Of a stretch of DNA of 64,000 nucleotides, positions 23,199 through 41,216 are shown in pieces. A program made the position numbers and the translations under genes. Source of the DNA: Deltaproteobacteria bacterium (lineage in GTDB: Bacteria; Myxococcota_A; UBA796; UBA9615); the NCBI GenBank assembly GCA_023954745.1, contig JAGSHC010000005.1, forward strand, positions 4,550 through 68,549. The letters are read 5' to 3'. Numbering within the stretch: the stretch's first letter is position 1; the number at the start of each line of letters is the position of its first letter. Below the pieces are notes generated by a model. That model worked only from the letters and a program-made list of their open reading frames with translations, did no database searches and was not told the origin of the DNA.

Positions 23199-24674
23199 TC
23201 ACGGCGAGACGACCAGCGGGTCAGGCACGCCCGGAGCACCAGCAACCGCGGTGAAGCTGCTCGACGGGCCCACGACCCAGAACTGCCTCTCGGGGGACGC
23301 AATGGCGAGCTCCCGGTCCACACCGAGGCCCTGGGGGTCCCACAACAGCGCCAGGCGCACCCGGGGCTCGCCTGGAATCACCCGCACCACGCCATCGCCG
23401 GAGCCAGGCATCGTGCTGACGGAGAGGATGGGAAGCGGGGCGGCGAACTGCCCTCCCCCCGTTCCTCGGAGCATGTAGACCCGACCGTCGTCGTCGGCGC
23501 GCAGTCCCAGGAACAGGTCCGCGACGCCATCCCCGGTGCCATCCCCGAGGTCGATGGAGTCGTAGGCCATGGGCAGCACCGCGCGCACCACTCCGCCGCT
23601 CAGGCCACCGTTGCCATCGCCGATCCACAAGCGGCACTGCGCGGCCACGGCCTCTTCGGCGCAGATCAGGAGGTCCGAAGCCCCATCGAGGTTCACATCG
23701 ATCAGTCGGGGCGCGACGGCCCATCGCTCGCCTGCGGCCACCGCATCGATGGTGATGCTCGTAGTGCGTAGCTGGTACTCCCCGTCGCCTTCGCCGAGGT
23801 GCACGAAGATCGATCCCGCGCCTACGCTGTCGAGGAGCACGCTGACGAGATCCCCCGAACCATCGCCGTCCAGGTCTCCACCGGCGACGACCAGACTTCG
23901 ACTTCCCAAGGAGACCACCTCGTTGATGGGCCCGGTCCAGTCGCCCTCGCACGTCCGGGAGATGGACGCGACGTCGTCCGCATCGGGATCCGAGGGGTCC
24001 ACCTGCTGCCGCATCCATTCCGTCGCTCCGTCGCCGTCGAGGTCCACTGCGATGGCTGAGCCCACCACTCCGGAGGGGACCGGAGCCCCGAGGCCCTGAG
24101 GGTCACCCAGAGCCTCTCCGTCGACCGCCCAGACCCGCAGATCGCCTCCGGGGCCCGCGACGCCCACCCTCGGGGCGAGGTCGGCGGGGACCGGCTCGTC
24201 GGTGAGACCATCGCAGTCGTTGTCGACCCCATCGCACTCCTCGGCCAACTCCGGGGACACGTCGGCGCTCTCGTCGTCGCAGTCCCCTTCGCAGGGCCTC
24301 AGTCCATCGGTGTCGGAGTCGGACTCATCGTCTGGGACAAGCGCGTCGCAGTCGTTGTCGAGGCCATCGCAAAGCTCCGGGGCGCCGTCGAAGATCGTGG
24401 CGTCCTCGTCGTCGCAGTCAACGCAGTCGTGGGCCCCGTCCCCGTCGTCGTCGGCGAGCTCGCTGTCGTCGCCATCGACGAGGCCGTCGCAGTCGTTGTC
24501 CACCCCGTCGCAGACTTCGGGGAGACCGGGCGCGACCGCCGCGCTCGTGTCGTCGCAGTCTCCATCTGTCGGGAGCACGCCGTCCTGGTCACCGTCGATC
24601 GCCTCATCGGGATAGAACGCGTTCGGGGCACATCCCCCCAGAAGCGCGGAGAGCAGAAGGAGGACTCTGATCAT
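23199..24674 (-). CDS. Lipoprotein with MopE-like Cys-rich putative metal-binding repeats (CDGVDNDCDGxxDE) and C-terminal FG-GAP/VCBS-like repeats
   Basis: Lipobox LLSALLGGC. It has five or more copies of DxDxDGxxxxxDCDD...CDGxDNDCDG and several DLDGDGxxD Ca-binding-like repeats. It is translationally coupled (4-nt overlap) to the upstream paralog gene. Confidence 0.6.
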   Translation of the reverse strand: MIRVLLLLSALLGGCAPNAFYPDEAIDGDQDGVLPTDGDCDDTSAAVAPGLPEVCDGVDNDCDGLVDGDDSELADDDGDGAHDCVDCDDEDATIFDGAPELCDGLDNDCDALVPDDESDSDTDGLRPCEGDCDDESADVSPELAEECDGVDNDCDGLTDEPVPADLAPRVGVAGPGGDLRVWAVDGEALGDPQGLGAPVPSGVVGSAIAVDLDGDGATEWMRQQVDPSDPDADDVASISRTCEGDWTGPINEVVSLGSRSLVVAGGDLDGDGSGDLVSVLLDSVGAGSIFVHLGEGDGEYQLRTTSITIDAVAAGERWAVAPRLIDVNLDGASDLLICAEEAVAAQCRLWIGDGNGGLSGGVVRAVLPMAYDSIDLGDGTGDGVADLFLGLRADDDGRVYMLRGTGGGQFAAPLPILSVSTMPGSGDGVVRVIPGEPRVRLALLWDPQGLGVDRELAIASPERQFWVVGPSSSFTAVAGAPGVPDPLVVSP

Positions 24675-25912
24675 CGGACCCGGACCCCTACGTCGAACCC
24701 GCCGCCGGCCGTGAGATGCGGCTTCGCGTCACCGGCGCTGCGGGCACCCACCGGGGAGCTCTCCGACGCAAACGCGTACAGCGCGAGCACCGGTTGCACC
24801 GCCGCCCCGGGCTTCGCCCCCGCGATGCGAACGCCCAGCTCAGGCCCCTGCACAAGGTAGGCGGCCGGGCCGGCGTAGCCGTCGGGAAGCAAAGCAGCTG
24901 CAGCCCCGGCGCCCGCGAAGGACCACGCAAGGAGCGGTCCCAGAGCGATGGGGCCCGCAGGGAATGCAGCGGCGATCTCCAGCCGAACTCCAACCTGTCC
25001 TGCCGGAGGCGCACCTGACGCTCCCCGGAGTCGCTCGCCGCGAGTCACGCCCAACAGGAGCGCCGCGTCGAGGAGAAGCCGCTCGTTGGCGACTCCGAGC
25101 TGTGCCCCCACGAGAAACCTCGCGGAGGCCCCCGCGTTGCCCTGCTGCGCGAACCCCGCGCCTCCTGTCTGGATCATCAGCCCACCAGAGGGTGGCGGCG
25201 GCGCCACGACAGGCGAGGCCTTCTTGGGGGCGGGACTCCGAGCGGGGCGTCGCGTGCGGGCCTTGTCCTCCGACTTGCGCTCGCCATACACCCCCGAGCC
25301 CGACGATTCGACCGAGGGCCGAAGGTCCATCCGCGTCACGCCCTTGGCGACGACCTCGACGATGTGGGCGCCGACCCGATAGCTCCCCACGGGGAGGTAG
25401 ATGGAGGTGGATCCGTCCTCGAGCTCGCTCATTCTCTGGCGCGCGGCTTCGAACGCGCGCTTCAGCTCGGGGTCGAGGAGCGGGGTCGCCGGGGCCGGGC
25501 GAGTTGCCCCCGCCGCCGTGCCCCCGATGATGAGCACCTTGCCGAAACGGCTGGTGAGGAAGTCATGAAACTCCGCGAACTCGGGGTCGAGGCGCGGAGA
25601 GAGAGCCGCCGCCGTCTTGGCCGCCTCGACGGCCCCCGCCAGCTCGCCCAGCGAGTAGCGAGTGCGCGCGATCTGTTCGTGGAGCTCCGCCGCAGCCTGG
25701 CCCTCTGGCAGGAGAGCCGCGGCCTCGAACTCCGCGAGGGCCTGTCGCGCCTGACCCGACTGCAAAAAGAAGCGTCCCTGCGCCATGCGGTGGCCGAAGC
25801 TGCTCGCAGGGGTCGTCGTAGGCTCCTCCTCCTCGGCATGAGCCGAGCCTGGAACGAGCCCGAGGCACAGGGCGGCCAGCGCGAGGCTAGAAGCGGAGCG
25901 CGAGACCCACAT
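24671..25912 (-). CDS. Secreted protein: TPR-like helical N-domain plus Gly/Ala-rich C-domain (paralog 1)
   Basis: Signal peptide MWVSRSASSLALAALCLGLVPGSAHA. It shares the motifs FLQSGQARQALAEFEAA and LPVGSYRVGAHIVEV with the next gene. The start was chosen at the internal ATG, because the longer ORF has a junk-like S/R-rich N-terminus. Confidence 0.5.
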   Translation of the reverse strand: MWVSRSASSLALAALCLGLVPGSAHAEEEEPTTTPASSFGHRMAQGRFFLQSGQARQALAEFEAAALLPEGQAAAELHEQIARTRYSLGELAGAVEAAKTAAALSPRLDPEFAEFHDFLTSRFGKVLIIGGTAAGATRPAPATPLLDPELKRAFEAARQRMSELEDGSTSIYLPVGSYRVGAHIVEVVAKGVTRMDLRPSVESSGSGVYGERKSEDKARTRRPARSPAPKKASPVVAPPPPSGGLMIQTGGAGFAQQGNAGASARFLVGAQLGVANERLLLDAALLLGVTRGERLRGASGAPPAGQVGVRLEIAAAFPAGPIALGPLLAWSFAGAGAAAALLPDGYAGPAAYLVQGPELGVRIAGAKPGAAVQPVLALYAFASESSPVGARSAGDAKPHLTAGGGFDVGVRVR

Positions 25913-27152
25913 CGAGGCCACCTCCGATCCGCAGGAACTGCCGGGTGTCGAGGCCCACGAGCTCCGTGCCGAGTCCGGCGAGGAGGACTCCCTCGGCTCC
26001 AATGAAGCTGCCGCCGACCGCCTCGACCGACGCTCCGATACGAATCCCGACCCGCCGCGGGTCGCCGGCTGGGAGGATGAGCAGGTCGAGCCCGAGCAGT
26101 CCGCCGGCTCCCCCCGTGCCAAGGGCACACTCGCCCAGCCAGCCGTGCCCGGTGGCGGTCTGCAAGGTCTCGCAGCCGACCACCGCGGGGCCGAGGAGCC
26201 CGCCCAGGAACCCCAGGTGGGGGGTCAGCCATGCTCCTCCGCCCAGGCGCACGTCGAGACCCACGTCGAGAATGCCGACAATCTCTGCGCCCACCGACTG
26301 CCGGCCCGGGTTCGTGGGGGAGGTTGGGCTCACCGCGCGGGAGCCGGCCACGCGGGCGCGTCCCTGCACCCGCGCGGGACCCACGTGAACTCCGATGCCG
26401 AAGACCCCGCCCAGTCGCAAGGGAGAGGTGCCGACCGTGCCGCCGGGGATCCCGGTCAGCCCGACGTGGGCGCCCACGAAGAACTCTCGGGGCCCGCCCA
26501 AGGCGACGAAGCCCGCGTCGTCACCGCGCAATGCGCCGGTCTGGAACGGGACGTCCTCAGCGTCGAGCACCAGCGCGAAGGCTTCGCCCGCGGTCACCTC
26601 GAACTCGTGCGAGCCCAGCGAGTAGGTGCCGAAGGGCAGCCACACGGTGGGCTCGGTGAGTCCCTTCCGCCCAGTGCGTTCCACGAGGGCTGCGAGGGTC
26701 TCCTTCTGCTTCGGGTCGATGAGGAAGCCCGTGTGGGCGAGGTCCAGCGGGCGCGTTGGCAGCTCGCGGCCCTCCGGCGCGTACAACAGCAGGCGGCCGT
26801 AGGAGGAATAGAGACGATCCAGTTCAGCCTTTGCCTCACGCTGGGCTTCGTCGCCCAGTACCGAGGCCAGCTCCCACGCGTGGATTGCCAGGCCTACCCG
26901 GCCGGCCTTCTCAGCGGCATTGGCGAGCTTGCTGTGGCAAGGCCGTGAGACCTTGCCCTCCGCGGTGTCGCAGGCCTCCTCGAGGGAATCGGCCGCTTCG
27001 TCGAACTTCCCGAACTGGAACAGCAGGTCGGCCTGCCGACTGAGGAACTCGAAGGACTTCGGTTCCTCTTCCGTGGTCGATTGGGCGGTCGCTCCGTAGG
27101 GGGCCAGAGCCCACGCCAGGAAGCACACCGCGCTCAGGGCACGCAGGGTCAC
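25887..27152 (-). CDS. Secreted protein: TPR-like helical N-domain plus Gly-rich C-domain ending in Phe (paralog 2)
   Basis: A signal peptide, LLFQFGKFDEAADSLEEA, LPFGTYSLGSHEFEV, and a Gly-rich C-terminal half ending ...GLALRF (a C-terminal aromatic as in OM barrels). It lies 6 nt downstream of the short CpaF gene. Confidence 0.5.
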   Translation of the reverse strand: MTLRALSAVCFLAWALAPYGATAQSTTEEEPKSFEFLSRQADLLFQFGKFDEAADSLEEACDTAEGKVSRPCHSKLANAAEKAGRVGLAIHAWELASVLGDEAQREAKAELDRLYSSYGRLLLYAPEGRELPTRPLDLAHTGFLIDPKQKETLAALVERTGRKGLTEPTVWLPFGTYSLGSHEFEVTAGEAFALVLDAEDVPFQTGALRGDDAGFVALGGPREFFVGAHVGLTGIPGGTVGTSPLRLGGVFGIGVHVGPARVQGRARVAGSRAVSPTSPTNPGRQSVGAEIVGILDVGLDVRLGGGAWLTPHLGFLGGLLGPAVVGCETLQTATGHGWLGECALGTGGAGGLLGLDLLILPAGDPRRVGIRIGASVEAVGGSFIGAEGVLLAGLGTELVGLDTRQFLRIGGGLDVGLALRF

Positions 27153-27158
27153 CCGGAC

Positions 27159-28319
27159 TCAGGCCTCTTCGCTGGTCTTCGAGGCGCGCCGGCGATCCCG
27201 CTCGGCACGACGCGCGCGGGCCGCATCGAGCATCTCCTTGGGGAAGCGCAGCCCCGCGAGCTTGATCTGCTCGGCGAAGGACGGCAGACGGCCCGTCGGC
27301 TCCAGGCGTCCCAGGATCTTGCCGTCCTCGTCCTTGCCCTCGGCCTTGAACGTGAAGAGGTCTCGCACCTGGTACTGACCGTCCGCGAGCTCCAAAACCT
27401 CGGTGATGTGGGTGATCTTCCGGCTGCCGTCGTGGAAGCGGGCCTGCTGCACGACCACGTCGAGAGCCATGGCGATCTGACTTCGCAGCGCCCACAGGGG
27501 CAACTCCACGTCGCCCATGAGGCACAGCGTCTCGAGCCGGGACAGCGTCTCCATGGGCGTCGACGCGTGAGTCGTGGACATGGACCCCTTGTGGCCCGAG
27601 ACCATGGCCTGGATCATGTCCAGCGCCTCGCCGGAGCGGACCTCGCCGATGACCACCCGGTCGGGGCGCATCCGCATCGCTGAGCGGAAGAGGTTGCGAA
27701 TCGTGACGGCCCCCCTGCCCTGGCGGTCCGGCGGCCGAGACTCGTAGTAGAGGAGGTGCGGCTTCTGGAGCTGGAGCTCCGTGCTGTCCTCGATGACGAT
27801 GATTCGCTGGTCGTCGGGGATGAACGAGCTCATCACGTTCAGAAGGGAGGTCTTCCCCGAGCCTGTTCCTCCCGCGATGACGATGTTGCACTCGATCTTC
27901 ACGGCGGCGTCGAGGAACTCGGCCGCGGCGGGGGTCATGGACCCGAAGCCCAGCAGCTTCTCTACCGTCAGTGCTTCCCGGAAGAACTTGCGGATGGCGA
28001 TGCAGATGCCCTTGCGGGCGACGGGCGGCATCGTGATGTGCACGCGGCTGCCGTTGGGCAGGCGGGCGTCCAGCAAGGGGCTCTCCCAATCGATCACCCG
28101 CCCGACGTACTGGGCGATGTTCTTCGCGAGAGCAAACACGTGGTCCTCGTGGGCGAACTTCGCGTCCGTCAACTCGAGCTTCCCGCCCCGCTCCACAAAG
28201 ACCTCTTCGGGACCGTTGATGAGGATCTCAGAGACGGAGTTGTCGTCGAGGTGGTGCTGGATGGGCACGAGGTACAGCGCGAGAGTCTGCTCGAAGACGC
28301 TCTCGAGAGTGGCGGTCAT
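27159..28319 (-). CDS. CpaF/TadA-family secretion ATPase, minimal form without an N-terminal regulatory domain
   Basis: Walker A GGTGSGKTS, Asp box, Walker B RIIVIEDSTEL, and a His box GHKGSMSTTHA of the VirB11/CpaF family. Confidence 0.85.
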   Translation of the reverse strand: MTATLESVFEQTLALYLVPIQHHLDDNSVSEILINGPEEVFVERGGKLELTDAKFAHEDHVFALAKNIAQYVGRVIDWESPLLDARLPNGSRVHITMPPVARKGICIAIRKFFREALTVEKLLGFGSMTPAAAEFLDAAVKIECNIVIAGGTGSGKTSLLNVMSSFIPDDQRIIVIEDSTELQLQKPHLLYYESRPPDRQGRGAVTIRNLFRSAMRMRPDRVVIGEVRSGEALDMIQAMVSGHKGSMSTTHASTPMETLSRLETLCLMGDVELPLWALRSQIAMALDVVVQQARFHDGSRKITHITEVLELADGQYQVRDLFTFKAEGKDEDGKILGRLEPTGRLPSFAEQIKLAGLRFPKEMLDAARARRAERDRRRASKTSEEA

Positions 28320-28352: not shown

Positions 28353-29792
28353 TCAGTTGCCGAAGACAGAGCCGCCCTTTTTGCCCCGCATCAACTTGTC
28401 GAGGACCTTCTTCTGCTTGCGACCGAACTGATAACGCTCGTCTTCCTTGTCCGGGAAGATGCGCTGCAGCCGCTCCATCTCTTCGAGGGCTCGGTCGTAG
28501 TTTCCTGCGGACTTCTCCCGCACGTAGGCCAGCTTGAGACGGCGGAACTCCTGGTCGAGCAGACCCTCAGCCTCGGCGATCTTCCGGTCCATCTCGCTGG
28601 CGAAGGCCGGCCAGTTTTCCGGGGGCACGAGCCCGAGCTGGCCCTTGGAGCGCTTCATGAACTCCACAGAGGTCCACAGGTTCTCGTCCGCGATCTGGTA
28701 CTCGCGGAGGTACGTGGAGCCGATGCCAAAGAGCCGCTGGGCCTCGGCGATGATCTCCTGGTCCGTCCGGTCGTTGCGGGGCGGGAGGATGATCTCCTCG
28801 GGCGTCGGGGTCGTCGTGCCCGGGCCCGGCGCCACGGGCGCGGTGCTTGGCTGGGTCAGCGCATAGGCGAACGACAGCAAGATGACGACGGCGGCGCCAA
28901 CCAGCACGACGTTGCGGATGAGGGGGAGGTTCGGCGGAGCCTTCTTGCCCTTCCCCTTTCCGCGGCCCTTCTTCTTCCGCTTCTTCGCGGTGATCACACC
29001 GGAGGAAGACCTGCGCGGGCCGGGAGCGCCCGGGCCCGGGGCCCGGCCTGGCGTCCCCGGCATCCCTGCGGACGAGGGCATCCCGGGAGCGGGAGGCATC
29101 CCCATGGACGAGCGACCCATGTTGGGGGGCATCCCCATCTGGGAGGGCGGACCCTGGGGCGGAACCCCCGGCGGCAGGCCGAACTGCGAGGGCGGGCCCT
29201 GGGGGGGGCCGCCGCGCGGTGGCGGTGGCGGCGCACCGAGGTGCGCGGGGTGCTGGCCGGAGAGGTGCCCGTAGGTGCCGGTCCCGATTCCTCCTGGAGG
29301 GGGCCCGGGAGGAGGCCCGGGGGGCAGTCCTCCGAGGGGGCCGGGAGGGTGCGTGTCCTGGCCACCGTGGGTGGGGCCTTGCTTGACGACGGTCGCCTCA
29401 GCCCCCGGCTTGGGGAGGGGCGCGCCCGCGCGCGAGTCCATCGAGCTCCCGGCGAACGCCACCGTCGCTTCGGGGTCCTGCTTCGCCGCTCCCTCCCGAG
29501 GGATACGCACCCGCAGCGCGATATCGCAGAACGTGATCAAGTCCCCGTCCTGCACGTAGACCCGCTCGATGGGACGGTCATTGAGGTACGTGTGGTTGAC
29601 GGTGCCGAGGTTCTCGAGGACGAGCTGGTCGCCTTGCCAACTCATCTCACACTGCTGGCGGCTCACATGCGGAGAGGACACCTGGAGTTGGCACTGGGAA
29701 CCCCTGCCGACAAGGATCGTGTCCTCGCGGAGGGAATAGGTCTCGCCGACATCTGGGCCGGCGAGGATTTCGACCTGGATCAGTCGCGCCAA
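28353..29792 (-). CDS. FHA domain - PG-rich linker - polyLys - TM - periplasmic domain protein (YscD/PrgH-like topology)
   Basis: An FHA signature (ILVGRGSQCQLQVSSPHVSRQQCEM...LENLGTVNHTYLND), ~150 aa of P/G-rich low complexity, KKRKKKGRGKGKGKK, a TM LIRNVVLVGAAVVILLSFAYAL, and a ~160-aa C-terminal domain. The start is uncertain. I chose an in-frame TTG (L49 of the track ORF), because the upstream 48 codons look non-coding (S/R-rich) and this choice leaves a 73-nt gap to tadC. Confidence 0.6.
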   Translation of the reverse strand: MARLIQVEILAGPDVGETYSLREDTILVGRGSQCQLQVSSPHVSRQQCEMSWQGDQLVLENLGTVNHTYLNDRPIERVYVQDGDLITFCDIALRVRIPREGAAKQDPEATVAFAGSSMDSRAGAPLPKPGAEATVVKQGPTHGGQDTHPPGPLGGLPPGPPPGPPPGGIGTGTYGHLSGQHPAHLGAPPPPPRGGPPQGPPSQFGLPPGVPPQGPPSQMGMPPNMGRSSMGMPPAPGMPSSAGMPGTPGRAPGPGAPGPRRSSSGVITAKKRKKKGRGKGKGKKAPPNLPLIRNVVLVGAAVVILLSFAYALTQPSTAPVAPGPGTTTPTPEEIILPPRNDRTDQEIIAEAQRLFGIGSTYLREYQIADENLWTSVEFMKRSKGQLGLVPPENWPAFASEMDRKIAEAEGLLDQEFRRLKLAYVREKSAGNYDRALEEMERLQRIFPDKEDERYQFGRKQKKVLDKLMRGKKGGSVFGN

Positions 29793-35679: not shown

Positions 35680-35844
35680 TGAAGAAAACCGGGGCTACCG
35701 GGCTTCCTCAATGCGTGGGCGAGTCTACAACAAAGCCTACCCAGGGGTGGCCGCGGGACCGGACACAGGGTTGGCACGTTGTGAGGAAGGAGCCGCTGTA
35801 CGCGCTGTGCGCGGGTTCGTGCCCTGGTTGCAGGGCCTACCAAA

Positions 35845-36858
35845 TCAGGTGCGGTGGTAGACGACGACCGTGCTCGTGACGCTGTTCTCAGCGGACTCTT
35901 CGAGGGAGATGTACGCCTCGCGCCCGTCCTTGAGGAACAGGAACGTGTTTGGCGAGTCCATCTGCTCTTCCATCTTCTCGCGGCCGGCCATGAAGTTCTG
36001 GGAGAGGCCCCAGCCCTCGAGCTCCATCGCCTGCAGGAAGTGATTCTCGGCCTGGTCGATGGACGAAGCGCCCCGGTAGATGTGGATGGAGTAGTCGGCG
36101 TCGCCCAACTCCTGCCCGAACGTGATCAGCCGGAAGCTTCCGCGAGGGCGCGGAATGTCCTCGATGTCGTAGCCGACCCCATCCTGACGCCGCTTCGGCC
36201 GCATGTTCTTGCGGTTGAAGTTTTCGTCGGGCCACACGTTCATGTACTGAGTGCCGCCGTTGGCGTCGTCGGCGAAGGCCACCACGATCTTCGCGTCGCC
36301 CAGGGCAGAGACCTCACCAGTCTTGTCGAAGTTCTCGAAGCGGGTCTTCATGTCGGCAGACCACTCGGCCTCGCCTTCCTTGCCCGTGACGATGGTCGCG
36401 AAGGCGCCCCACTTCTCGCCATCCAGGCGCACGTAGCGCTGGTTGATGAGCTTCTCGGTCTCTTCGATGCGGCGGGCGTGCTCGGCCCGGTCCTTGGCGT
36501 TCTTGACCGTCTTCAGCAGCCGGTCCTTGGTGGCCTGGTCAGCCACCTCGCGGACGTCACCCTTGTACATGTTCTCGTAGTAGTCGAGCAGTGTGTCGAT
36601 GGGCTTGCTGGACCGGTACTGCGTGTAATAGAGGGTGTTGCCGTTGAGGTACACCTCGTTGACGTCCCCGTCCTTCACGCGGGTCTTCATGTAGGCCGGA
36701 ACGCCCTCGAGGGCGCGTCCCAGGTCCATGTACACCTCGGCGGCGGCGGTGGGCGGGCGCGGGGTCATGAAGTGGCCGAAGCCGAACACGCCCACGACGA
36801 GCACGCAGATGAGGACGACGCGGAAGCCGCGAGCGGACAGAGTGCGGAAGACGTTCAT
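35845..36858 (-). CDS. Hypothetical membrane-anchored periplasmic protein with K/E/D/N/Y-rich composition
   Basis: An N-terminal TM (VVLICVLVVGVFGFGHF) and a ~300-aa soluble domain with amino-acid usage unlike the neighbouring genes. I recognise no family. Confidence 0.4.
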   Translation of the reverse strand: MNVFRTLSARGFRVVLICVLVVGVFGFGHFMTPRPPTAAAEVYMDLGRALEGVPAYMKTRVKDGDVNEVYLNGNTLYYTQYRSSKPIDTLLDYYENMYKGDVREVADQATKDRLLKTVKNAKDRAEHARRIEETEKLINQRYVRLDGEKWGAFATIVTGKEGEAEWSADMKTRFENFDKTGEVSALGDAKIVVAFADDANGGTQYMNVWPDENFNRKNMRPKRRQDGVGYDIEDIPRPRGSFRLITFGQELGDADYSIHIYRGASSIDQAENHFLQAMELEGWGLSQNFMAGREKMEEQMDSPNTFLFLKDGREAYISLEESAENSVTSTVVVYHRT

Positions 36859-36871: not shown

Positions 36872-37468
36872 TCAGTACGAAGAGAGCGCGACGGCGGACC
36901 ACGCCATCAACGCGCCCTTGACGGCCATGATCTGGAGGTCGCCATAGGTCTGCTTCTTGTGCCACGTGCCACCCGACACGAAGTGCCGACTCCTCACGTG
37001 GGTGCCGCCAGGCAGCGTGTTGTCGAGGATGGAGTTGGGGGCATAGGTCGCGCCCACCTCGAAACCTCTCGTCTGGCTGGCGAACGAGAGCATGTTGCTC
37101 AGCGACGAGGCCATGTTCAGCGGGCCCGAGCTGGGGAAGCTCGAGTTCGCGGAGCTGGGGTTGGCCGCGGGGTCGAAGGGCGCCAACTCGACGTAGGTCG
37201 GGTTGTGGTCCGTCATCGGGTAGTACGCCTGGGCCCGGCTCATGATCTGGCTGTCTTCGAGGTCCGTCTCGGCGACGCTGGCGGTGGCGGTGGCCATGTA
37301 GCGCGCGGCCATGTGGCAAGTGAGCTTGAGCTCGTATGCCTTACCGAACCACAGGATGCCCTCGATCATCGCGAGCAGGACGAAGACCCAGATGACGAAC
37401 TCCGCCATCGCCTGTCCTCGCTGGCCCTTGCCATCCCGTGCGTCTCGGATTCGTTGAATGGAAAGCAT
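36872..37468 (-). CDS. TadE-like pseudopilin
   Basis: An N-terminal GQAMAEFVIWVFVLLAMIEG TadE motif (G-x4-EF). Confidence 0.6.
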   Translation of the reverse strand: MLSIQRIRDARDGKGQRGQAMAEFVIWVFVLLAMIEGILWFGKAYELKLTCHMAARYMATATASVAETDLEDSQIMSRAQAYYPMTDHNPTYVELAPFDPAANPSSANSSFPSSGPLNMASSLSNMLSFASQTRGFEVGATYAPNSILDNTLPGGTHVRSRHFVSGGTWHKKQTYGDLQIMAVKGALMAWSAVALSSY

Positions 37469-37477
37469 GTCCGTCTC

Positions 37478-38965
37478 CTAGTGCGCGATGACTGCGTCGA
37501 CGCCCGAGCCCGAGAGCGCGGTGAGGGAACCAACCAGGCCGCCCACGCCGCCGGGGGCGCCCTCGCTGGTGCTGCCGGCGCCCGGAATCCAGCCAGCGGC
37601 TGCGCTCGCGGTGTCCGAGCCCATGGTCACGGGGGCGAGGTGCGTGCGCCAGTGGGGGCTGAAGAGTCCGCCGTCACTGTGCGGGCTGTAGATCTGGGCC
37701 TGGGCGACAGTGATCATCCCGACCGTGTCGCCGTAGGTGTTCTGGAACACATCGGGGATGAACTTCGCGGCGATGTCGTCCGGCGTCTTGTAGGCGAATC
37801 CGTAGTAGTCACGCCGCTCTTCCCAGTCCTCCGCGAGGATGAACGGTTGGACGTTGGGGTTGCCCGAGTCCAGGAAGGCGAAGAAGGCTCCGAGGTAATA
37901 GAACGGGTTCGGGATGGAGAAGTTCTCGTCGTCGCACCAGAGGCACCACCCGGGGGCGTCCACCTCGAAGTTGACGGAGCTGGGCCCGAAGCTGCCGCCG
38001 CACATCACCGCGTACCTCGCCCACACCGCCATGATGAACATGACGTTGGTGAAGTGATACGGCGCCTTGCTGGCCCAGAATGCGTGATACGGAATCTGCA
38101 TCTCGCCCCAGAGCGGACCGCCCAGGCCCACCGCGGCGAGGATGTCCGACGCGATGTCCCGGAAGTCCCCCGCGTAGGAGAAGCCACTGATCTCGTCGAC
38201 AGCGGCTGCGAGCGACCCTCCCAGGCTGTACTGGATCTCGTTGTAGCCGCCAGCGTTCTCGCCGCTCAGCGTGCAGGAGCAGAGGTCTTCGAGCTCGCCC
38301 TGCTCTTCGGGGATCGAGGGCGGATACATGATCCCGAAGGCCGCGCCGTTCTTCATGGCGAGGCGTGCGCTCTCGATCTCGGCGATCCAGGGGAAGAGGT
38401 TGTCGACGTTCTCTTCGACGTCCGACAGGGTCTCCATGATGTCCCAGATGAAGTCCTCGTCGTCCTCTGTCTCCATGAGCACGCCCGGCAGCTGCAGGGT
38501 GTCGATGAAGGCGTCCACGGGAATCTGGAACTGGCCGGTCATGGCGGCGACTGCGGCCCAGAAGGCCTCGATGGCCGGGCTGAGGAGCAGCGCCGTCAAG
38601 GCAGTCCAGAACACGGCCTTGAGGTAGATCTCCTGGGCGAGGAGCATCGCCATGAAGATGTTCATCATGGAGTTGAGGTTCATCGCCCGGGCGATCCAGG
38701 TGCTCCCGGAGAGCACGGCTGCATCCGCCGCGGACTGCGCCTGCATCTTGTCGTGCAGCAGCGCCCCGCTGTTGATCACCATGAAGGTGAAGCAAGCGAG
38801 CAGGAACAGGATCAGCGCGATGTAGACGATGGACTGGCCGCCCTCGTCCCGGTGCACGTCGCTCAGTCGCGTGCGGGCACGCTCGAGCAGGCTGTGAAGT
38901 GATCGGGTCACGTCCATCTCCCTACATGTCCCAGAAGCCGCTGATCGGCGGGTCGCCGGTCTCAC
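37478..38965 (-). CDS. TadG-like protein (Tad_N pilus-assembly N-terminal domain)
   Basis: GGQSIVYIALILFLLACFTFMVINSGALLHDKMQAQSAADAAVLSGSTW resembles the TadG-like N-domain, followed by a large ~400-aa C-terminal domain. The start may be the internal ATG (MDVTRS) at ~38917. Confidence 0.5.
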   Translation of the reverse strand: MRPATRRSAASGTCREMDVTRSLHSLLERARTRLSDVHRDEGGQSIVYIALILFLLACFTFMVINSGALLHDKMQAQSAADAAVLSGSTWIARAMNLNSMMNIFMAMLLAQEIYLKAVFWTALTALLLSPAIEAFWAAVAAMTGQFQIPVDAFIDTLQLPGVLMETEDDEDFIWDIMETLSDVEENVDNLFPWIAEIESARLAMKNGAAFGIMYPPSIPEEQGELEDLCSCTLSGENAGGYNEIQYSLGGSLAAAVDEISGFSYAGDFRDIASDILAAVGLGGPLWGEMQIPYHAFWASKAPYHFTNVMFIMAVWARYAVMCGGSFGPSSVNFEVDAPGWCLWCDDENFSIPNPFYYLGAFFAFLDSGNPNVQPFILAEDWEERRDYYGFAYKTPDDIAAKFIPDVFQNTYGDTVGMITVAQAQIYSPHSDGGLFSPHWRTHLAPVTMGSDTASAAAGWIPGAGSTSEGAPGGVGGLVGSLTALSGSGVDAVIAH

Positions 38966-39929
38966 CCTCGAGGGGCAGGACGGCGTGGGCTCTAATCTCG
39001 GTGTACTGACCGGGAAGGTTCAAGCTGAAGAACGGCGGCAGCGACAGGAGTGACCAGTCGTCGCCGATGAAGCGGTTGACGAGCGGAATCGCCAGGTAGA
39101 AGCGGTGGCTCACGATGACGCCCACGTCGCTCTCCGTGGGCCAATCCCAGGTGGCGGTGCCGGAGACCTCGGTGCCCCCGCTCTCATCCGCCTTGTAGAG
39201 GGCGGCGCTCGTGGCGAAGGTGGAGTAGGCGTAGCGCTGCAGTGCGCTGTCTACGTACTCACCGGCGATGCCGAGGCCGCTCATCATCTGGCTGAAGGTC
39301 GAGAAGGCCGAGCTGATGATGTCGCCCACGAAGGGCAGGCCGTCGAGCACCACGCTCGCTCGGGGCGAGATGGGCACGCAGGCCATGGCGGCGGCCTGGT
39401 TCACCTTGTCGTACTTGTCACCGCCGTCGACGTTGATGCTGTGCTTCGGCTCTCCGCCCACTTCGCTGGGGATGTAGACGATGGCGGCGCGCGCGGCGGA
39501 GAAGGCGGCGTAGGTGACGACGTTCTTCGCCTGGTACATGAGCGCGAGCTGCATGAGGATGAGCGTCGTGATGAGCACGATGGGGAAGCTGATGGCGAAC
39601 TCGGTCATCGCCTGACCGCGGGTCCCCAGGGAGAGGCTGCGCCGTGCCCGGGCGCTCAGGAAGAAGCCCGCCGTCGCCTTCGCGAGGACCCAGGCCATCT
39701 TCCCGCCTGCGACGAGCGCGGCGGCGGCCATGAGGCCGAAGAGCATGATGTCGGCGTTGTAGAGGGGCTGCACCAGAGGCGTCGCGGCGTCGTAGGCTGT
39801 GGCCATGCCGCTCCCGAGGAGCGCGACGCTCTCCCGGCCCCAGGTGGTGCCGCCGGACCAGCTCGCGAGACCCAAGGAGAGGGCGGCGAAGCCAGTGGCC
39901 GACAGGGCGATGCGTGTGTGAGGAGTCAT
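38922..39929 (-). CDS. TadE/TadF-like pseudopilin with an N-terminal extension
   Basis: GQAMTEFAISFPIVLITTLILMQ motif. The start is ambiguous: ATG at 39929 (MTPHTRI, with two extra TMs) or ATG at 39698 (MAWVLAK, the canonical length). Confidence 0.5.
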   Translation of the reverse strand: MTPHTRIALSATGFAALSLGLASWSGGTTWGRESVALLGSGMATAYDAATPLVQPLYNADIMLFGLMAAAALVAGGKMAWVLAKATAGFFLSARARRSLSLGTRGQAMTEFAISFPIVLITTLILMQLALMYQAKNVVTYAAFSAARAAIVYIPSEVGGEPKHSINVDGGDKYDKVNQAAAMACVPISPRASVVLDGLPFVGDIISSAFSTFSQMMSGLGIAGEYVDSALQRYAYSTFATSAALYKADESGGTEVSGTATWDWPTESDVGVIVSHRFYLAIPLVNRFIGDDWSLLSLPPFFSLNLPGQYTEIRAHAVLPLEGETGDPPISGFWDM

Positions 39930-39943
39930 CTCTGCGCTCCGTC

Positions 39944-40495
39944 TCAGAAGTCCAGCCCGAGGAACGAACCGACGCCGAGCTGGATCTCGACGAGGGCCCA
40001 CGCCCAGCCGCCCACGATGGCGACTCCAAGCGGGAAGGCATCACTGTTCTGCTCGTCGAGCTCTTCGGGCTCGAGGAACGGAACCAGCGACGTGAAGATG
40101 TATCGCCACATGTTCTTGAGGGACCGCAGCAGCTTGCCCTTCCAGATCATGATTCCGAGGGCCATGACGCCCGAGAGCAGCCCCATGTAGAGGAGCCCCA
40201 GGATGGTGGCGTGCAGTCCGGTGAGGGCACCGAGCCCGGCGGCGAGCTTGACGTCCCCTCCCCCGATGCCGCCGAACATCATTCCCAGGAAGAGGATGAG
40301 GAATCCGAGGCCGAAGCCCTGGAGCGAGGAGACGAAGCCGCCGAGTCCGCCGGTGGCGAACCCGAGAGCGAGACCGAGCAGGATGGCGGGGTACGTGAGC
40401 GCGTTGGGGATGCGGCCTTGCTTCACGTCGGAGTACAAGGCTCCGGCCATGACGGCTGCACTCGCGGTCATCGTCACCATCTGCATCGTCTCCAT
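39944..40495 (-). CDS. Prepilin peptidase CpaA/TadV (A24 family)
   Basis: A polytopic protein with GGGDVKL and a second catalytic Asp region, positioned next to the pilin genes. Confidence 0.8.
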   Translation of the reverse strand: METMQMVTMTASAAVMAGALYSDVKQGRIPNALTYPAILLGLALGFATGGLGGFVSSLQGFGLGFLILFLGMMFGGIGGGDVKLAAGLGALTGLHATILGLLYMGLLSGVMALGIMIWKGKLLRSLKNMWRYIFTSLVPFLEPEELDEQNSDAFPLGVAIVGGWAWALVEIQLGVGSFLGLDF

Positions 40496-40627: not shown

Positions 40628-40643
40628 GCGTATTTCAATACGC
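40628..40643. promoter_or_regulatory. 16-bp palindrome GCGTATTtcAATACGC, 3' of the flp1 pilin gene and 5' of the prepilin peptidase gene
   Basis: A perfect inverted repeat read from the sequence. It is AT-rich for this genome and looks like a candidate operator. Confidence 0.3.
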
Positions 40644-40684
40644 AACCGAGCGAGCGACGCCGACATCGCCCGCCAGGGAGCCGA

Positions 40685-40903
40685 TTACAGGTTGGAGTCG
40701 ACGTTGTCGATCTCTCCGTCGGCCGTCTCGAACAGGCCCTTGATCTTGCCGCCGAAGGACACGGCGATGGCGATGCAGACCACGGCGATGGCGACGAGGA
40801 TGATGACGTACTCGGTCATGCCCTGGCCGCGCTCGTCGCTGTGGAGGCGGGCGAAGGCGTTCTTGGCGGAGTCGGCGACGATGGCGAGGTTGCGAGCGAT
40901 CAT
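40685..40903 (-). CDS. Flp-family type IVb pilin
   Basis: Leader ...HSDERGQG followed by MTEYVIILVAIAVVCIAIAV (the Flp motif, G then xxxxEY, and a hydrophobic helix); 72 aa. Confidence 0.75.
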   Translation of the reverse strand: MIARNLAIVADSAKNAFARLHSDERGQGMTEYVIILVAIAVVCIAIAVSFGGKIKGLFETADGEIDNVDSNL

Positions 40904-40973
40904 TTGGGTGTCTCCTTGAGGTCGGTGGCGTTCATGTAGGGAGCGCGGCTCCCCCGGTTGTTGGTTTCGAGGA

Positions 40974-41159
40974 CTAGGGAATGGGGAGGCTGATCCACGT
41001 GGCGGCGAACGCGTAGTAACGCTCGAAGGCCTCCTGCAGCGCGCCCATCACGGGGATGAGGCCGATGAAGACGGCCACGACGAGCACGATGTACTCGGTC
41101 ATTGCCTGTCCTCGCATGGAGGAGGTGCGGGTCGTTGAGGGAGCGCGAAGCAGCTGCAT
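40974..41159 (-). CDS. Flp-family type IVb pilin (second copy)
   Basis: ...SSMRGQA followed by MTEYIVLVVAVFIGLIPVMG. The start was chosen at the ATG MQLLRAP. A longer in-frame start at 41216 is possible. Confidence 0.7.
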   Translation of the reverse strand: MQLLRAPSTTRTSSMRGQAMTEYIVLVVAVFIGLIPVMGALQEAFERYYAFAATWISLPIP

Positions 41160-41216
41160 GGTCGAGGCTTCTCCCGCTCGATGCCTCGCGTTCAATCGTC
41201 GCGGCGGTCCGAGCAA

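What the first reader, a model, noticed from the sequence alone, without database searches (positions are those of the whole stretch)
23199..41216. Single-locus Tad/Flp-type (Kil-like) envelope machine with non-canonical additions
About 18 kb of co-directional, mostly translationally coupled genes encode a complete Tad-like apparatus. It has two Flp pilins, a prepilin peptidase, TadE-like and TadG-like pseudopilins, CpaB, a secretin and TadB/TadC. It also has features not in the canonical Caulobacter/Aggregatibacter blueprint: two CpaF ATPases (one fused to FHA), a YscD-topology FHA-TM protein, an uncharacterised K/E/Y-rich periplasmic protein, no TadZ/CpaE ParA-like gene, and an operon tail encoding two paralogous secreted TPR/Gly-rich proteins and a MopE-like Cys-rich FG-GAP lipoprotein. 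Myxococcus has a Tad-like Kil system for contact-dependent prey killing, split over two clusters. This locus looks like a compact, possibly distinct version with FHA and Ser/Thr-kinase signalling attached. From my recollection of that work I cannot say whether this exact architecture has been described.
Basis: partly seen in the sequence, partly recalled or inferred. Interest (0 to 1): 0.8.

Follow-up and report, generated by a model that had tools for sequence, protein, structure and literature searches.

The report
Kil-like Tad pilus locus, two motors
This is a complete one-operon Tad/Flp pilus machine of the FHA-regulated type that Myxococcus uses to kill prey, from an uncultured marine Myxococcota-like bacterium; its main new feature is a second, stripped-down motor ATPase, and whether it kills prey cannot be told from sequence.

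Summary
Window 23199-41216 (minus strand) carries 18 co-directional, tightly packed genes, and profile searches support every Tad assignment except Flp1, which rests on its motif alone. The genes are two Flp pilins, an A24 peptidase, a TadE/TadG/TadE pseudopilin trio, CpaB, a short secretin, FHA-CpaF, TadB, TadC, an FHA-TM protein and a second CpaF. There is no TadZ.

Corrections:
- The two "secreted TPR/Gly-rich" tail proteins are predicted outer-membrane beta-barrels with periplasmic TPR domains.
- The "K/E/Y-rich" protein is a bitopic inner-membrane protein of an unnamed family that sits upstream of cpaB in other Tad loci.
- A DUF192 gene (41308-41742), which lies next to Tad genes across many phyla, probably belongs to the locus.
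- The Ser/Thr kinases lie 8.6 kb upstream, beyond an ABC-transporter operon.

The locus has most Kil hallmarks. However, FHA-CpaF is a published architecture (class III) found mostly in non-predatory betaproteobacteria, and my tree does not resolve a link to Myxococcaceae KilF.

The most distinctive part is CpaF2. It has only the NTD and ATPase domains and lacks the three-helix bundle called the minimum CpaF architecture. It forms a deep separate clade (100% bootstrap) that recurs in other Myxococcota MAGs and sits next to a kinase in Bradymonadales-like genomes.

Verdict: a new variant of a known kind, of moderate interest.

The parts
41308..41742 (-). DUF192 protein with a C-terminal hydrophobic segment.
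   Evidence: Pfam DUF192, 57.5 bits. Its start is 4 nt after the PD40 stop. DUF192 homologues lie within CpaF-centred loci in 37 of 80 genomes from many phyla, mostly just after tadC. It is conserved just upstream of Flp in L001, L004, L005, L007, L093, L095 and L097.
40974..41159 (-). Flp1, a 61-aa Flp-type prepilin. It is the Flp copy conserved across the clade.
   Evidence: No Pfam or NCBIfam hit. It carries the class-III signal motif RGQ/AMTEY followed by a hydrophobic helix. It is 76-87% identical in L001, L004, L005, L093, L095 and L097.
40685..40903 (-). Flp2, a 72-aa Flp prepilin.
   Evidence: Pfam Flp_Fap, E 4.6e-6, 26.8 bits, below the gathering score. Motif RGQ/GMTEY, with an AGGAG ribosome-binding site. 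Present in L001, L093, L095 and L007, absent from L004, L005 and L097.
39944..40495 (-). TadV/CpaA-type prepilin peptidase, 183 aa, with no methyltransferase domain.
   Evidence: Pfam Peptidase_A24, 61.9 bits. Both Asp motifs are visible: YSDVKQGRIPN and GGGDVKL.
38922..39929 (-). TadE-like pseudopilin, 335 aa, in the KilL-like position. It has an unusually long (~105 aa) N-terminal extension before the GQ/AMTEF motif.
   Evidence: Pfam TadE, 38.5 bits, at residues 129-171 of the long ORF. Start refined to 39929, which matches the 335-aa genes called in L001 and L002. The N-terminal extension aligns from residue 1 in L004 and L005.
37478..38917 (-). TadG-like large pseudopilin, ~479 aa, in the KilN-like position.
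   Evidence: Pfam Tad (TadE/G-like N-terminus), 29.5 bits. N-terminal hydrophobic helix. 92% identical in L001 and 28% in L007.
36872..37468 (-). Small TadE/TadF-like pseudopilin, 198 aa, in the KilM-like position.
   Evidence: Pfam TadE, 24.4 bits. Motif RGQ/AMAEF.
35845..36858 (-). Bitopic inner-membrane protein of an unnamed family: one N-terminal TM helix and two periplasmic alpha/beta domains.
34819..35631 (-). CpaB/RcpC periplasmic ring protein. The longest ORF starts at 35679, but GTG 35631 matches the 270-aa homologues.
   Evidence: Pfam RcpC 82.5 bits + SAF; start refinement.
33536..34789 (-). Short secretin, 417 aa, with a signal peptide and no N0/Secretin_N or BON domain detected.
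   Evidence: Pfam Secretin 90 bits and a weak T2SS-T3SS_pil_N hit only. The Cystobacter KilC homologue is 482 aa with pil_N + BON + Secretin.
31651..33528 (-). FHA-CpaF, the primary motor ATPase, with class III architecture: FHA, a Q/Y/A-rich linker, then 3HB-NTD-CAD.
   Evidence: Pfam FHA 57.8 + T2SSE 203 bits. Aligns to C. crescentus CpaF residues 94-475. 49-52% full-length identity to Myxococcaceae proteins, and the Cystobacter homologue lies in Kil cluster-1 context.
30794..31651 (-). TadB/CpaG-type platform protein. Its start overlaps the FHA-CpaF stop.
   Evidence: Pfam T2SSF, 62.7 bits; TAATG overlap.
29866..30780 (-). TadC/CpaH-type platform protein.
   Evidence: Pfam T2SSF, 64.3 bits.
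28353..29792 (-). FHA-TM protein with YscD/PrgH topology: a cytoplasmic FHA domain, a Pro/Gly-rich linker, one TM segment and a ~165-aa periplasmic domain.
   Evidence: Pfam FHA 55.3 and Yop-YscD_cpl 46.6 bits, both above threshold. One TM segment. Start refined to TTG 29792. The periplasmic domain is 30% identical in L007.
27159..28319 (-). CpaF2, a second, minimal CpaF-family ATPase with NTD + CAD only. It has no FHA, no IDR and no three-helix bundle.
   Evidence: Pfam T2SSE, 176 bits. Aligns to C. crescentus CpaF residues 150-500 only. Walker A, Asp box, Walker B/Glu, His box and the RMRPxR arginine finger are all present. The stop-to-stop ORF allows at most 397 aa. Homologues are 355-391 aa, with one 643-aa exception. 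It forms a separate clade with 100% bootstrap and is 47% identical to primary CpaFs, which are 64% identical among themselves.
25887..27152 (-). Tail1, a predicted outer-membrane protein: signal peptide, TPR domain, small beta domain and a C-terminal small beta-barrel ending in ...GLALRF.
24671..25912 (-). Tail2, a distant paralogue of Tail1 (25% identity). It overlaps the Tail1 stop by 26 nt.
   Evidence: Alignment A2. The Tail HMM hits it at E 1.5e-103, and both copies are present in L001, L004 and L005. Start at ATG 25912 with a GGAGG ribosome-binding site.
23199..24674 (-). Cys-rich MopE-repeat / FG-GAP putative lipoprotein. Its start overlaps the Tail2 stop (ATGA).
   Evidence: Pfam Cu-binding_MopE 92 bits (3 repeats) + FG-GAP_3 38 bits. 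N-terminus MIRVLLLLSALLGGC. Conserved in this position in L001, L002 and L004, but displaced in L005.
49794..55132 (-). Two tandem paralogous bitopic Ser/Thr kinases. They are candidate upstream regulators only, and a link to the locus is not shown.
   Evidence: Pfam Pkinase, 139.9 and 137.5 bits. They are separated from Flp1 by unk528, an Opp-type ABC operon, PD40 and DUF192. The block is syntenic in L093, L094 and L097, with kinase domains 88-90% identical.

Best explanation
The locus encodes an envelope-spanning Tad (type IVc) pilus machine of the FHA-regulated kind, that is class III CpaF, the class to which the Myxococcus Kil system's ATPase belongs.

Shown by homology:
- Two Flp prepilins and three pseudopilins (TadE-like, TadG-like, TadE/F-like) share one class-III signal motif, RGQ[AG]M[TA]E[YF]. 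A dedicated A24 peptidase is encoded with them.
- TadB and TadC form the inner-membrane platform.
- FHA-CpaF is the motor.
- CpaB and a short secretin form the periplasmic and outer-membrane conduit.

Inferred:
- The three pseudopilins form a priming or tip complex like KilL/M/N.
- The FHA domain on the motor and the YscD/PrgH-like FHA-TM protein recruit or gate assembly in response to Thr phosphorylation by Ser/Thr kinases. This would replace the ParA-like TadZ as the positioning or activation device.
- The bitopic periplasmic protein upstream of cpaB is a structural accessory of the CpaB/secretin conduit.
- The two TPR + beta-barrel outer-membrane proteins act as clade-specific pilotin/anchor substitutes for TadD/RcpB, which have no sequence homologue here.
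- CpaF2 is a second motor. It keeps all catalytic motifs but lacks the N-terminal modules (IDR, 3HB) through which CpaF is thought to contact and regulate the platform. It may act on the same platform as a dedicated retraction or alternative-mode motor, by analogy with PilT versus PilB.

The biological role is contact-dependent interaction with other cells or surfaces. Prey killing as in Myxococcus is plausible but not shown.
For: - Domain assignments.
- Shared prepilin motif.
- Tight operon spacing.
- Gene-for-gene conservation of the whole locus in relatives with 70-89% identical FHA-CpaF. The core order through CpaF2 is also kept in a Myxococcota MAG at 24-66% identity (L007).
- A rearranged single locus with CpaF2 and extra FHA proteins exists in another Myxococcales MAG (L088).
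- Named nearest relatives of FHA-CpaF are Myxococcaceae proteins. For Cystobacter the context is peptidase-secretin-FHA-ATPase-double-FHA protein, which is Kil cluster 1.
- Literature definitions of Kil and Tip.
- CpaF2 is catalytically intact and lacks the IDR and 3HB. It forms a robust separate clade. It sits next to a Ser/Thr kinase in two Bradymonadales-like genomes whose kinases are only 50% identical.
- The CpaF N-terminus modulates retraction, and the 3HB is predicted to contact the platform.
- Tail1 fold.
- TadZ absent.
Against: - No functional data exist for any protein of this clade, and the organism is uncultured (seawater metagenomes).
- FHA-CpaF occurs mostly in non-predatory betaproteobacteria, and in Acidithiobacillus and Lentisphaeria loci here. 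The class therefore does not imply killing.
- Grouping with Myxococcaceae KilF has 21% bootstrap.
- No KilD-like protein, toxin or T3SS* genes were seen in the window ORFs I scanned.
- The kinases are not in the operon, and none lies within 10 kb of the L088 locus.
- The retraction role for CpaF2 is pure analogy. In Bdellovibrio the extra tadA2 paralogue was dispensable, and deleting the 3HB from Caulobacter CpaF abolished expression.
- The pilotin role for Tail1/2 rests on fold and position only. These genes are confined to the marine clade.
Confidence: 0.6

Rival explanations
1. It is an ordinary adhesive Tad/Flp pilus for attachment or aggregation, for example on marine particles. It happens to be of the FHA-CpaF class and has no role in killing other cells. 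FHA/kinase control simply times adhesion.
For: - Class III FHA-CpaF is mostly betaproteobacterial and not tied to predation.
- FHA-CpaF loci occur in Acidithiobacillus, Thauera, Quisquiliibacterium and Lentisphaeria.
- No toxin, lytic enzyme or T3SS* gene was found in the window ORFs scanned.
- The Kil phylogenetic link is unresolved.
- The last gene of the operon is an FG-GAP/MopE lipoprotein, a domain type compatible with adhesion.
Against: - The locus combines several Kil-type traits: an FHA-TM PrgH-like protein next to the platform genes, a short secretin, no TadZ and a TadE/G/E trio.
- The host lineage is Myxococcota-like, and its nearest named relatives carry bona fide Kil cluster 1.
- Kil toxins are also unknown and unlinked in Myxococcus, so their absence here is uninformative.
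Confidence: 0.3
2. The machine is a pseudopilus-type secretion device (T2SS-like) rather than a surface pilus. It exports or surface-exposes cargo such as the MopE/FG-GAP lipoprotein, with CpaF2 and the TPR/beta-barrel proteins forming the export-specific module.
For: - Seef et al. raised a T2SS-like function for Kil.
- The operon tail (CpaF2, Tail1, Tail2, MopE/FG-GAP) is translationally coupled and co-conserved in L001, L002 and L004.
Against: - Kil has since been shown to polymerise a real pilus (KilP).
- The MopE/FG-GAP gene is displaced in L005 and absent from L007 and L088, while CpaF2 is kept.
- CpaF2 occurs without any tail genes in Bradymonadales-like genomes.
Confidence: 0.07
3. CpaF2 is not a working motor of this pilus. 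It is either a regulatory or decoy hexamer-forming paralogue, or it serves a different, unlinked type IV filament system. Its place in the operon reflects co-regulation only.
For: - It lacks the 3HB reported as part of the minimum CpaF architecture and predicted to contact the platform.
- It is found as an orphan next to a kinase and cytochrome-c maturation genes in L087 and L091.
- Bdellovibrio tadA2 is dispensable.
Against: - All catalytic motifs and the arginine finger are conserved.
- The family is conserved at 57-59% identity across Myxococcota and Bradymonadales-like lineages.
- It is embedded in Tad operons in at least three divergent locus types: the window clade, L007 and L088. L018 also has a copy about 8 kb downstream of its FHA-CpaF.
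Confidence: 0.2

Closest known systems
Myxococcus xanthus Kil system (kil clusters I MXAN_3102-3108 and II MXAN_4648-4661; Seef et al. 2021, Herrou et al. 2025)
   Same: - FHA-fused CpaF-type ATPase.
- Secretin without N0.
- CpaB, two platform proteins, an A24 peptidase and small Flp pilins.
- A TadE/TadG/TadE-like minor-pilin trio.
- A PrgH/YscD-like FHA protein next to the platform genes.
- No TadZ.
- A Myxococcota-type host.

   Different: - Everything is in one operon instead of two clusters plus separate tip clusters.
- A second minimal ATPase is present, where Kil is described as single-ATPase.
- No KilD-like double-FHA/TPR protein.
- The secretin is shorter, with no BON domain detected.
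- Extra TPR + beta-barrel OM proteins, a MopE/FG-GAP lipoprotein and DUF192.
- Phylogenetic sisterhood with KilF is not resolved.
- Function is untested.
Class III CpaF (FHA-IDR-3HB-NTD-CAD; Yen et al. 2025, e.g. Achromobacter xylosoxidans E3HIW0)
   Same: The primary ATPase has exactly this architecture.
   Different: The class is reported mostly from betaproteobacteria, whereas this one is in a Myxococcota-like lineage. CpaF2 fits none of the three published classes because it lacks the 3HB.
Bdellovibrio bacteriovorus Tad system (Bd0110-0119; TadZA fusion; tadA2/tadA3 paralogues)
   Same: - The core gene order is the same: flp - peptidase/pseudopilin - cpaB - secretin - ATPase - tadB.
- It has more than one TadA-family ATPase.
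- It is a predator-associated Tad system.
   Different: - The Bdellovibrio motor is fused to TadZ, not to FHA.
- Its extra ATPases lie in other loci, one of them paired with a second secretin.
- Its CpaFs fall outside the clade of the window's ATPases.
Canonical Tad/Cpa loci (Aggregatibacter flp-tadV-rcpCAB-tadZABCDEFG; Caulobacter cpaA-F)
   Same: Flp, prepilin peptidase, RcpC/CpaB, secretin, TadA/CpaF, TadB, TadC and TadE/F/G homologues in one operon.
   Different: - No TadZ/CpaE.
- No sequence homologue of TadD or RcpB.
- FHA domains on the motor and on a bitopic partner.
- A second ATPase, whereas the Tad pilus is described as working with a single bifunctional motor.
Type IVa pilus PilB/PilT two-motor arrangement
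   Same: One ATPase has extra N-terminal domains and one is minimal (NTD + ATPase), encoded for the same filament system. This is an architectural analogy only.
   Different: CpaF2 is a CpaF derivative: its best PDB match is CpaF at 334 bits, against 149 bits for VirB11. It is not a PilT homologue, and no evidence for retraction exists.

Membership tests
Tad/Flp (type IVc) pilus system | Small Flp-type prepilin with the G/XXXXEY class-III signal | tested here: met
   Flp2: Flp_Fap E 4.6e-6, but 26.8 bits against a cut-off of 32.2. Flp1 and Flp2 both carry G/Q[AG]MTEY followed by a hydrophobic helix. Flp1 has no profile support.
Tad/Flp (type IVc) pilus system | TadV/CpaA-type A24 prepilin peptidase | tested here: met
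   Peptidase_A24, 61.9 bits; 183 aa.
Tad/Flp (type IVc) pilus system | CpaF/TadA ATPase with TadB and TadC platform proteins | tested here: met
   T2SSE 203 bits. The best PDB match is C. crescentus CpaF at E 5e-117. Two T2SSF proteins.
Tad/Flp (type IVc) pilus system | RcpC/CpaB and RcpA/CpaC secretin | tested here: met
   RcpC 82.5 bits; Secretin 90 bits.
Tad/Flp (type IVc) pilus system | TadE/TadF/TadG pseudopilins | tested here: met
   TadE 38.5 and 24.4 bits; Tad (TadG N-terminus) 29.5 bits. All are above their cut-offs.
Tad/Flp (type IVc) pilus system | TadZ/CpaE ParA-like localisation ATPase | tested here: not met
   No ParA-type domain in any locus ORF. tblastn with two TadZ sequences gives a best E of 0.06 in the whole window.
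Tad/Flp (type IVc) pilus system | TadD pilotin / RcpB outer-membrane partner | tested here: inconclusive
   No sequence homologue. Tail1 and Tail2 are predicted TPR + OM beta-barrel proteins that could be analogues. The PilW-type TPR hit is insignificant at E 0.16.
Kil system (Myxococcus-type predatory Tad) | Motor ATPase fused to an N-terminal FHA domain | tested here: met
   FHA 57.8 bits at residues 25-87 of the 625-aa ATPase. This feature is not exclusive to Kil.
Kil system (Myxococcus-type predatory Tad) | Short secretin lacking the N0 domain | tested here: met
   417 aa, with only a weak pil_N hit and Secretin detected, and no Secretin_N. This was tested at Pfam sensitivity only.
Kil system (Myxococcus-type predatory Tad) | Associated FHA-domain accessory proteins (PrgH-like MXAN_4649; KilD MXAN_3108) | tested here: inconclusive
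   An FHA/Yop-YscD_cpl + TM protein lies directly after tadC, matching the architecture and position of MXAN_4649. No KilD-like double-FHA/TPR protein is in the window, though one is present in L007. Orthology to the M. xanthus proteins could not be tested because no cluster II sequence was retrievable.
Kil system (Myxococcus-type predatory Tad) | Single ATPase | tested here: not met
   Two CpaF-family genes in the operon.
Kil system (Myxococcus-type predatory Tad) | Core proteins cluster phylogenetically with those of Myxococcales, Bradymonadales and Bdellovibrionales | tested here: inconclusive
   In an NJ tree of the ATPase core, the window clade groups with other Myxococcota single-locus systems (88%). 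The union with Myxococcaceae KilF has only 21% bootstrap, and Bdellovibrio sequences fall elsewhere. Only one protein was used, with no ML analysis and no Bradymonas sequence.
Kil system (Myxococcus-type predatory Tad) | KilL/KilN/KilM-type minor-pilin 'Tip' trio | tested here: inconclusive
   TadE-like (335 aa), TadG-like (479 aa) and TadE-like (198 aa) genes lie in that order, with shared prepilin motifs. The heterotrimer was not modelled, and published tip HMMs found Tip1-4 restricted to Myxococcota genomes, almost exclusively Myxococcales.
Kil system (Myxococcus-type predatory Tad) | Assembly at prey contacts and requirement for contact-dependent killing | not testable with these tools
   The organism is uncultured, so this needs genetics and microscopy.
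CpaF class III (Yen et al. 2025) | FHA - disordered linker - 3HB - NTD - CAD | tested here: met
   FHA at 25-87. Q/Y/A-rich low-complexity segment at ~100-205. Residues 225-605 align to CpaF 94-475, including the 3HB region.
CpaF 'minimum architecture' (3HB-NTD-CAD), applied to CpaF2 | Presence of the three-helix bundle N-terminal to the NTD | tested here: not met
   CpaF2 residues 19-369 align to CpaF 150-500, leaving only 18 residues upstream. The stop-to-stop ORF allows at most 397 aa. Homologues are 355-391 aa, with one 643-aa exception.

The most novel reading that the evidence does not exclude
CpaF2 defines a previously unclassified, ancient family of minimal CpaF-derived ATPases (NTD + CAD, no three-helix bundle) in Myxococcota and Bradymonadales-like bacteria. 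It would act as a dedicated second motor of FHA-regulated, Kil-type Tad pili, for example for retraction or a switch of mode. It would be controlled by Ser/Thr kinases, as suggested by its conserved adjacency to a kinase in Bradymonadales-like genomes. That would mean a PilB/PilT-like division of labour evolved independently inside the Tad lineage, which is currently viewed as a single-motor system.
Probability: 0.2. Interest if true: 0.75.

Novelty: new variant of a known kind. Interest (0 to 1): 0.45.

Why it matters
Tad pili are currently explained by a single bifunctional motor, and how one ATPase both extends and retracts the pilus is an open question. A conserved, catalytically intact CpaF paralogue without the regulatory N-terminal modules sits inside FHA-regulated Tad operons of several Myxococcota lineages. 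This gives a concrete test of whether some Tad systems split these tasks.

The locus also offers a compact, one-operon version of a Kil-type machine. It could be moved as a unit for heterologous reconstitution, which is harder for the dispersed Myxococcus genes. It points to three uncharacterised accessory families as candidates for parts of Tad assembly that are still unassigned: the bitopic protein upstream of cpaB, DUF192, and the TPR + beta-barrel OM proteins.

It does not by itself show that this marine lineage is predatory.

Tried and rejected
- **Genome scan.** It returned mostly generic CpaF loci from many phyla and missed the window's own clade, Myxococcus and Bradymonas. I therefore could not retrieve M. 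xanthus cluster II or the B. sediminis locus for direct comparison. The loci were still useful as an outgroup panel.
- **Taxonomy from cluster names.** This gave nothing useful. The only names are 'Deltaproteobacteria bacterium' for the window's own CpaF2, 'Rickettsiales bacterium' (probably mis-binned) and 'Myxococcota bacterium' for L007.
- **Context look-ups.** Look-ups for P0267 and P0130 returned only 1.3-kb and 2.5-kb contigs.
- **AFDB Foldseek.** The library was not available, so I could not ask whether Myxococcus has a structural homologue of the bitopic protein.
- **Promoters, terminators and RNAs.** The promoter scan found none and the terminator-like hits were below the chance expectation. 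Rfam found only a tRNA at 15408-15480.
- **Palindrome after Flp2.** The sequence at 40628-40643 is not conserved in relatives, so I dropped it.
- **First bootstrap attempt.** It timed out. I redid it with a fast distance routine.
- **CpaF2 as a recent duplicate of FHA-CpaF.** Rejected: the two are 49% identical, and CpaF2 sits in a separate clade with 100% bootstrap.
- **Tail proteins as soluble secreted Gly-rich proteins.** Rejected on the predicted beta-barrel fold and the conserved C-terminal ...LRF.
- **Kinases as part of the operon.** Rejected on gene order.

Full report
**1. What is there**

The window is about 68% G+C. GC3 framing and ORF calls show an uninterrupted run of minus-strand genes across the flagged interval.

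- Flp_Fap for Flp2 (E 4.6e-6, below the gathering score).
- Peptidase_A24.
- TadE, twice.
- The TadE/G-like 'Tad' N-terminal domain on a ~479-aa protein.
- RcpC/CpaB + SAF.
- Secretin, plus a weak pil_N hit.
- FHA + T2SSE on a 625-aa ATPase.
- Two T2SSF platform proteins.
- An FHA/Yop-YscD_cpl protein with a single TM segment.
- A second T2SSE ATPase of 386 aa.
- Weak TPR hits in the first tail protein.
- Three MopE repeats plus FG-GAP repeats in the last gene.

Flp1 has no profile support in Pfam or NCBIfam. I accept it on its 61-aa size, its hydrophobic helix and the motif RGQ/AMTEY. Near-identical versions of that motif occur in Flp2 (RGQ/GMTEY), TadE1 (RGQ/AMTEF) and TadE2 (RGQ/AMAEF). All four are therefore plausible substrates of the one peptidase.

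After start-codon refinement, the genes are separated by at most 33 nt or overlap (TAATG, ATGA). The exceptions are the Flp region, a 213-nt gap before cpaB and a 73-nt gap before the FHA-TM gene.

There is no TadZ/CpaE. No ORF in the locus has a ParA-type domain, and tblastn with two TadZ sequences taken from other loci finds nothing in the 64 kb.

**2. Corrections to the description**

*DUF192.* A DUF192 gene lies immediately upstream of Flp1 (41308-41742), outside the stated coordinates. In the panel of CpaF-centred loci, DUF192 homologues lie within the locus in 37 of 80 genomes from many phyla, mostly directly after tadC. I count it as a probable part of the system.

*The kinases.* The two Ser/Thr kinases are real (Pkinase about 140 bits each). 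They lie at 49794-55132, separated from Flp1 by an unknown gene, an Opp-type ABC transporter operon, a PD40 protein and DUF192.

**3. Relatives and conservation**

The window's CpaF2 is 100% identical to an NCBI MAG protein labelled 'Deltaproteobacteria bacterium'.

Contigs whose FHA-CpaF is 70-89% identical come from NCBI MAGs, JGI and ENA. A further set, retrieved through the ABC-transporter binding protein, includes seawater-metagenome assemblies. They all carry the same order: DUF192, Flp, peptidase, TadE, TadG-like, TadE, unknown, CpaB, secretin, FHA-CpaF, TadB, TadC, FHA-TM, CpaF2, Tail1, Tail2, (MopE/FG-GAP), rnc.

A more distant 'Myxococcota bacterium' MAG (L007) keeps the order through CpaF2. 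Its core ATPase is 66% identical and its other proteins 24-47%. It adds a KilD-like double-FHA protein and lacks the tail. A 'Myxococcales bacterium' MAG (L088) has a rearranged single locus with CpaF2 and additional FHA proteins.

By contrast, Cystobacter fuscus and a related contig show the split Myxococcus-type cluster I: peptidase, secretin, FHA-ATPase, double-FHA protein.

**4. The second ATPase**

CpaF2 aligns to C. crescentus CpaF residues 150-500 only. Walker A, the Asp box, Walker B/Glu, the His box and the RMRPxR arginine finger are all intact. The primary FHA-CpaF aligns from residue 94 and so includes the three-helix bundle.

The CpaF2 reading frame cannot be extended beyond 397 aa. 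The listed homologues are 355-391 aa, apart from partial sequences and one 643-aa protein.

Yen et al. classify CpaF into three architectures and describe 3HB-NTD-CAD as the minimum (PMC12019362). CpaF2 falls below that minimum.

In an NJ tree of the ATPase core, CpaF2 sequences from the window clade, L007, L018, L087 and L088 form a clade with 100% bootstrap, outside all primary CpaFs sampled from many phyla. They are on average 47% identical to primary CpaFs, which are 64% identical to each other. CpaF2 is therefore an old, divergent paralogue and not a recent duplicate.

In two Bradymonadales-like genomes the CpaF2 orthologue is an orphan gene. One is named Persicimonas; the other I assign from its 85% identical CpaF2 and shared gene context. 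In both, the orphan gene lies immediately upstream of a homologous gene, Pfam-confirmed as a Ser/Thr kinase only in L087; the two products are only 50% identical. This is independent, if modest, support for a kinase link.

I found no paper describing this family. Extra TadA paralogues in separate loci are reported for Bdellovibrio, where tadA2 was dispensable.

**5. Is it a Kil system?**

It works like one on paper. It has an FHA-fused motor, a short secretin without a detectable N0, a PrgH/YscD-like FHA-TM protein after the platform genes (architecture and position of MXAN_4649), no TadZ, and a TadE/TadG/TadE trio in the KilL/N/M arrangement.

Membership is not established:
- The FHA-CpaF fusion is the published class III, found mostly in betaproteobacteria. 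I see it in Acidithiobacillus, Thauera, Quisquiliibacterium and Lentisphaeria loci.
- The window clade groups with other Myxococcota single-locus systems (88%), but its union with Myxococcaceae KilF has only 21% bootstrap.
- There is no KilD.
- There are two ATPases.
- I could not retrieve M. xanthus cluster II or Bradymonas sequences for direct tests.
- Prey killing cannot be inferred from sequence.

**6. Kinase linkage**

The block K2-K1-unknown-SBP-permeases-ATPases-PD40-DUF192-Flp is syntenic in three further contigs (L093, L094, L097). The kinase domains are 88-90% identical even where neighbouring genes are 50-70% identical.

However, the whole region, including housekeeping genes on both sides, is collinear in this clade. 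The L088 locus has no kinase within 10 kb. The kinases are candidates, not demonstrated parts.

**7. Mechanism proposed**

*Shown by homology.* The locus encodes a Tad-type pilus assembly line: prepilins and pseudopilins, peptidase, TadB/C platform, CpaF motor, CpaB ring and secretin.

*Inferred.*
- FHA domains on the motor and on the bitopic YscD-like partner couple assembly to Thr phosphorylation, in place of TadZ-based positioning.
- The pseudopilin trio primes or caps the filament.
- The bitopic protein and the TPR/beta-barrel proteins are envelope accessories. The latter may substitute for TadD/RcpB.
- CpaF2 is a second motor for the same platform. The PilT analogy (a minimal ATPase next to a domain-rich one) and the reported role of the CpaF N-terminus in retraction make a retraction or mode-switch role the most attractive guess. 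It remains a guess.

**8. Verdict**

This is a real, well-conserved, complete Tad locus of the FHA-regulated (Kil-like) kind in an uncultured marine Myxococcota-like lineage. The CpaF2 family is the part that merits follow-up. I rate it a new variant of a known kind, with interest 0.45.

Noticed in passing
window 41308-41742 (-); loci L007-L086: DUF192 (COG1430) homologues lie inside CpaF-centred Tad loci in 37 of 80 genomes. These span Chloroflexota, Bacillota, Gammaproteobacteria, Lentisphaerota and others, and the gene usually sits directly after tadC. A full-text search found no paper linking DUF192 to Tad pili in its title or abstract.
   Followed up: partly
L087 10001-13271; L091 1326-4310: In two Bradymonadales-like genomes (one named Persicimonas sp.) the CpaF2-family ATPase is an orphan gene between cytochrome-c maturation genes and a homologous downstream gene, which carries a Pkinase domain in L087 (no Pfam record for the truncated L091 copy). 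The ATPases are 85% identical and the downstream proteins 50%, so the adjacency is conserved across species.
   Followed up: partly
window 38922-39929 (-): The TadE-like pseudopilin has about 105 residues, including hydrophobic segments, upstream of its GQ/AMTEF prepilin motif. That is far longer than usual Tad leader peptides. The extension aligns from residue 1 in relatives L004 and L005, so it appears to be coding.
   Followed up: partly
window 35632-35844 (-), motif at ~35733: The only large intergenic gap inside the operon (213 nt, before cpaB) contains the motif TTTGTTGTAGACT. It is identical in L001 and similar in L005 (TTTCATGTAGACT), which suggests an internal promoter or operator. 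Two TTGTCAA direct repeats lie upstream of Flp1 (41286, 41298), and single copies lie at the same place in L001 and L093.
   Followed up: partly
window 49794-52904 and 52895-55132 (-): Two tandem paralogous bitopic Ser/Thr kinases have long low-complexity linkers. Their kinase domains are 88-90% identical in a relative (L097) whose neighbouring genes are only 48-71% identical, so they seem to be under unusually strong constraint.
   Followed up: partly
window 41747-42850 (-): A PD40/TolB-like beta-propeller protein overlaps the stop of the upstream ABC ATPase (ATGA) and ends 4 nt before DUF192. By spacing, DUF192 therefore belongs to the ABC-transporter operon, although elsewhere it travels with Tad genes. 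PD40 and DUF192 are adjacent in all clade relatives.
   Followed up: no
L025 9536-11281; L017, L027, L026, L078: FHA-fused CpaF genes occur in Acidithiobacillus ferrianus, Thauera, Quisquiliibacterium and Lentisphaeria loci without an obvious TadZ. This fits the published class III and shows that the fusion is not a predator marker.
   Followed up: partly
L042 9182-11419: In Bdellovibrio sp. HCB288 a ParA/TadZ-like N-terminal region and CpaF lie in one open reading frame. This matches the TadZA fusion reported in a 2026 preprint.
   Followed up: no
window 40628-40643 (-): A perfect 7+7 palindrome, GCGTATTGAAATACGC, lies 42 nt after the Flp2 stop. It was not found in any relative checked, so it is probably not functional.
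   Followed up: yes
window 22476-23186 (-) and downstream: rnc (RNase III) starts 12 nt after the MopE/FG-GAP gene, and a radical-SAM gene, era and der follow on the same strand. The pilus operon therefore runs directly into a housekeeping gene string with no detectable terminator.
   Followed up: no
window 453-6898 (+), 15408-15480 (+): The left part of the window is core envelope housekeeping (BamA, Skp, FabZ, LpxB, an MsbA-like ABC exporter), and there is one tRNA. This indicates a chromosomal rather than a mobile context.
   Followed up: no
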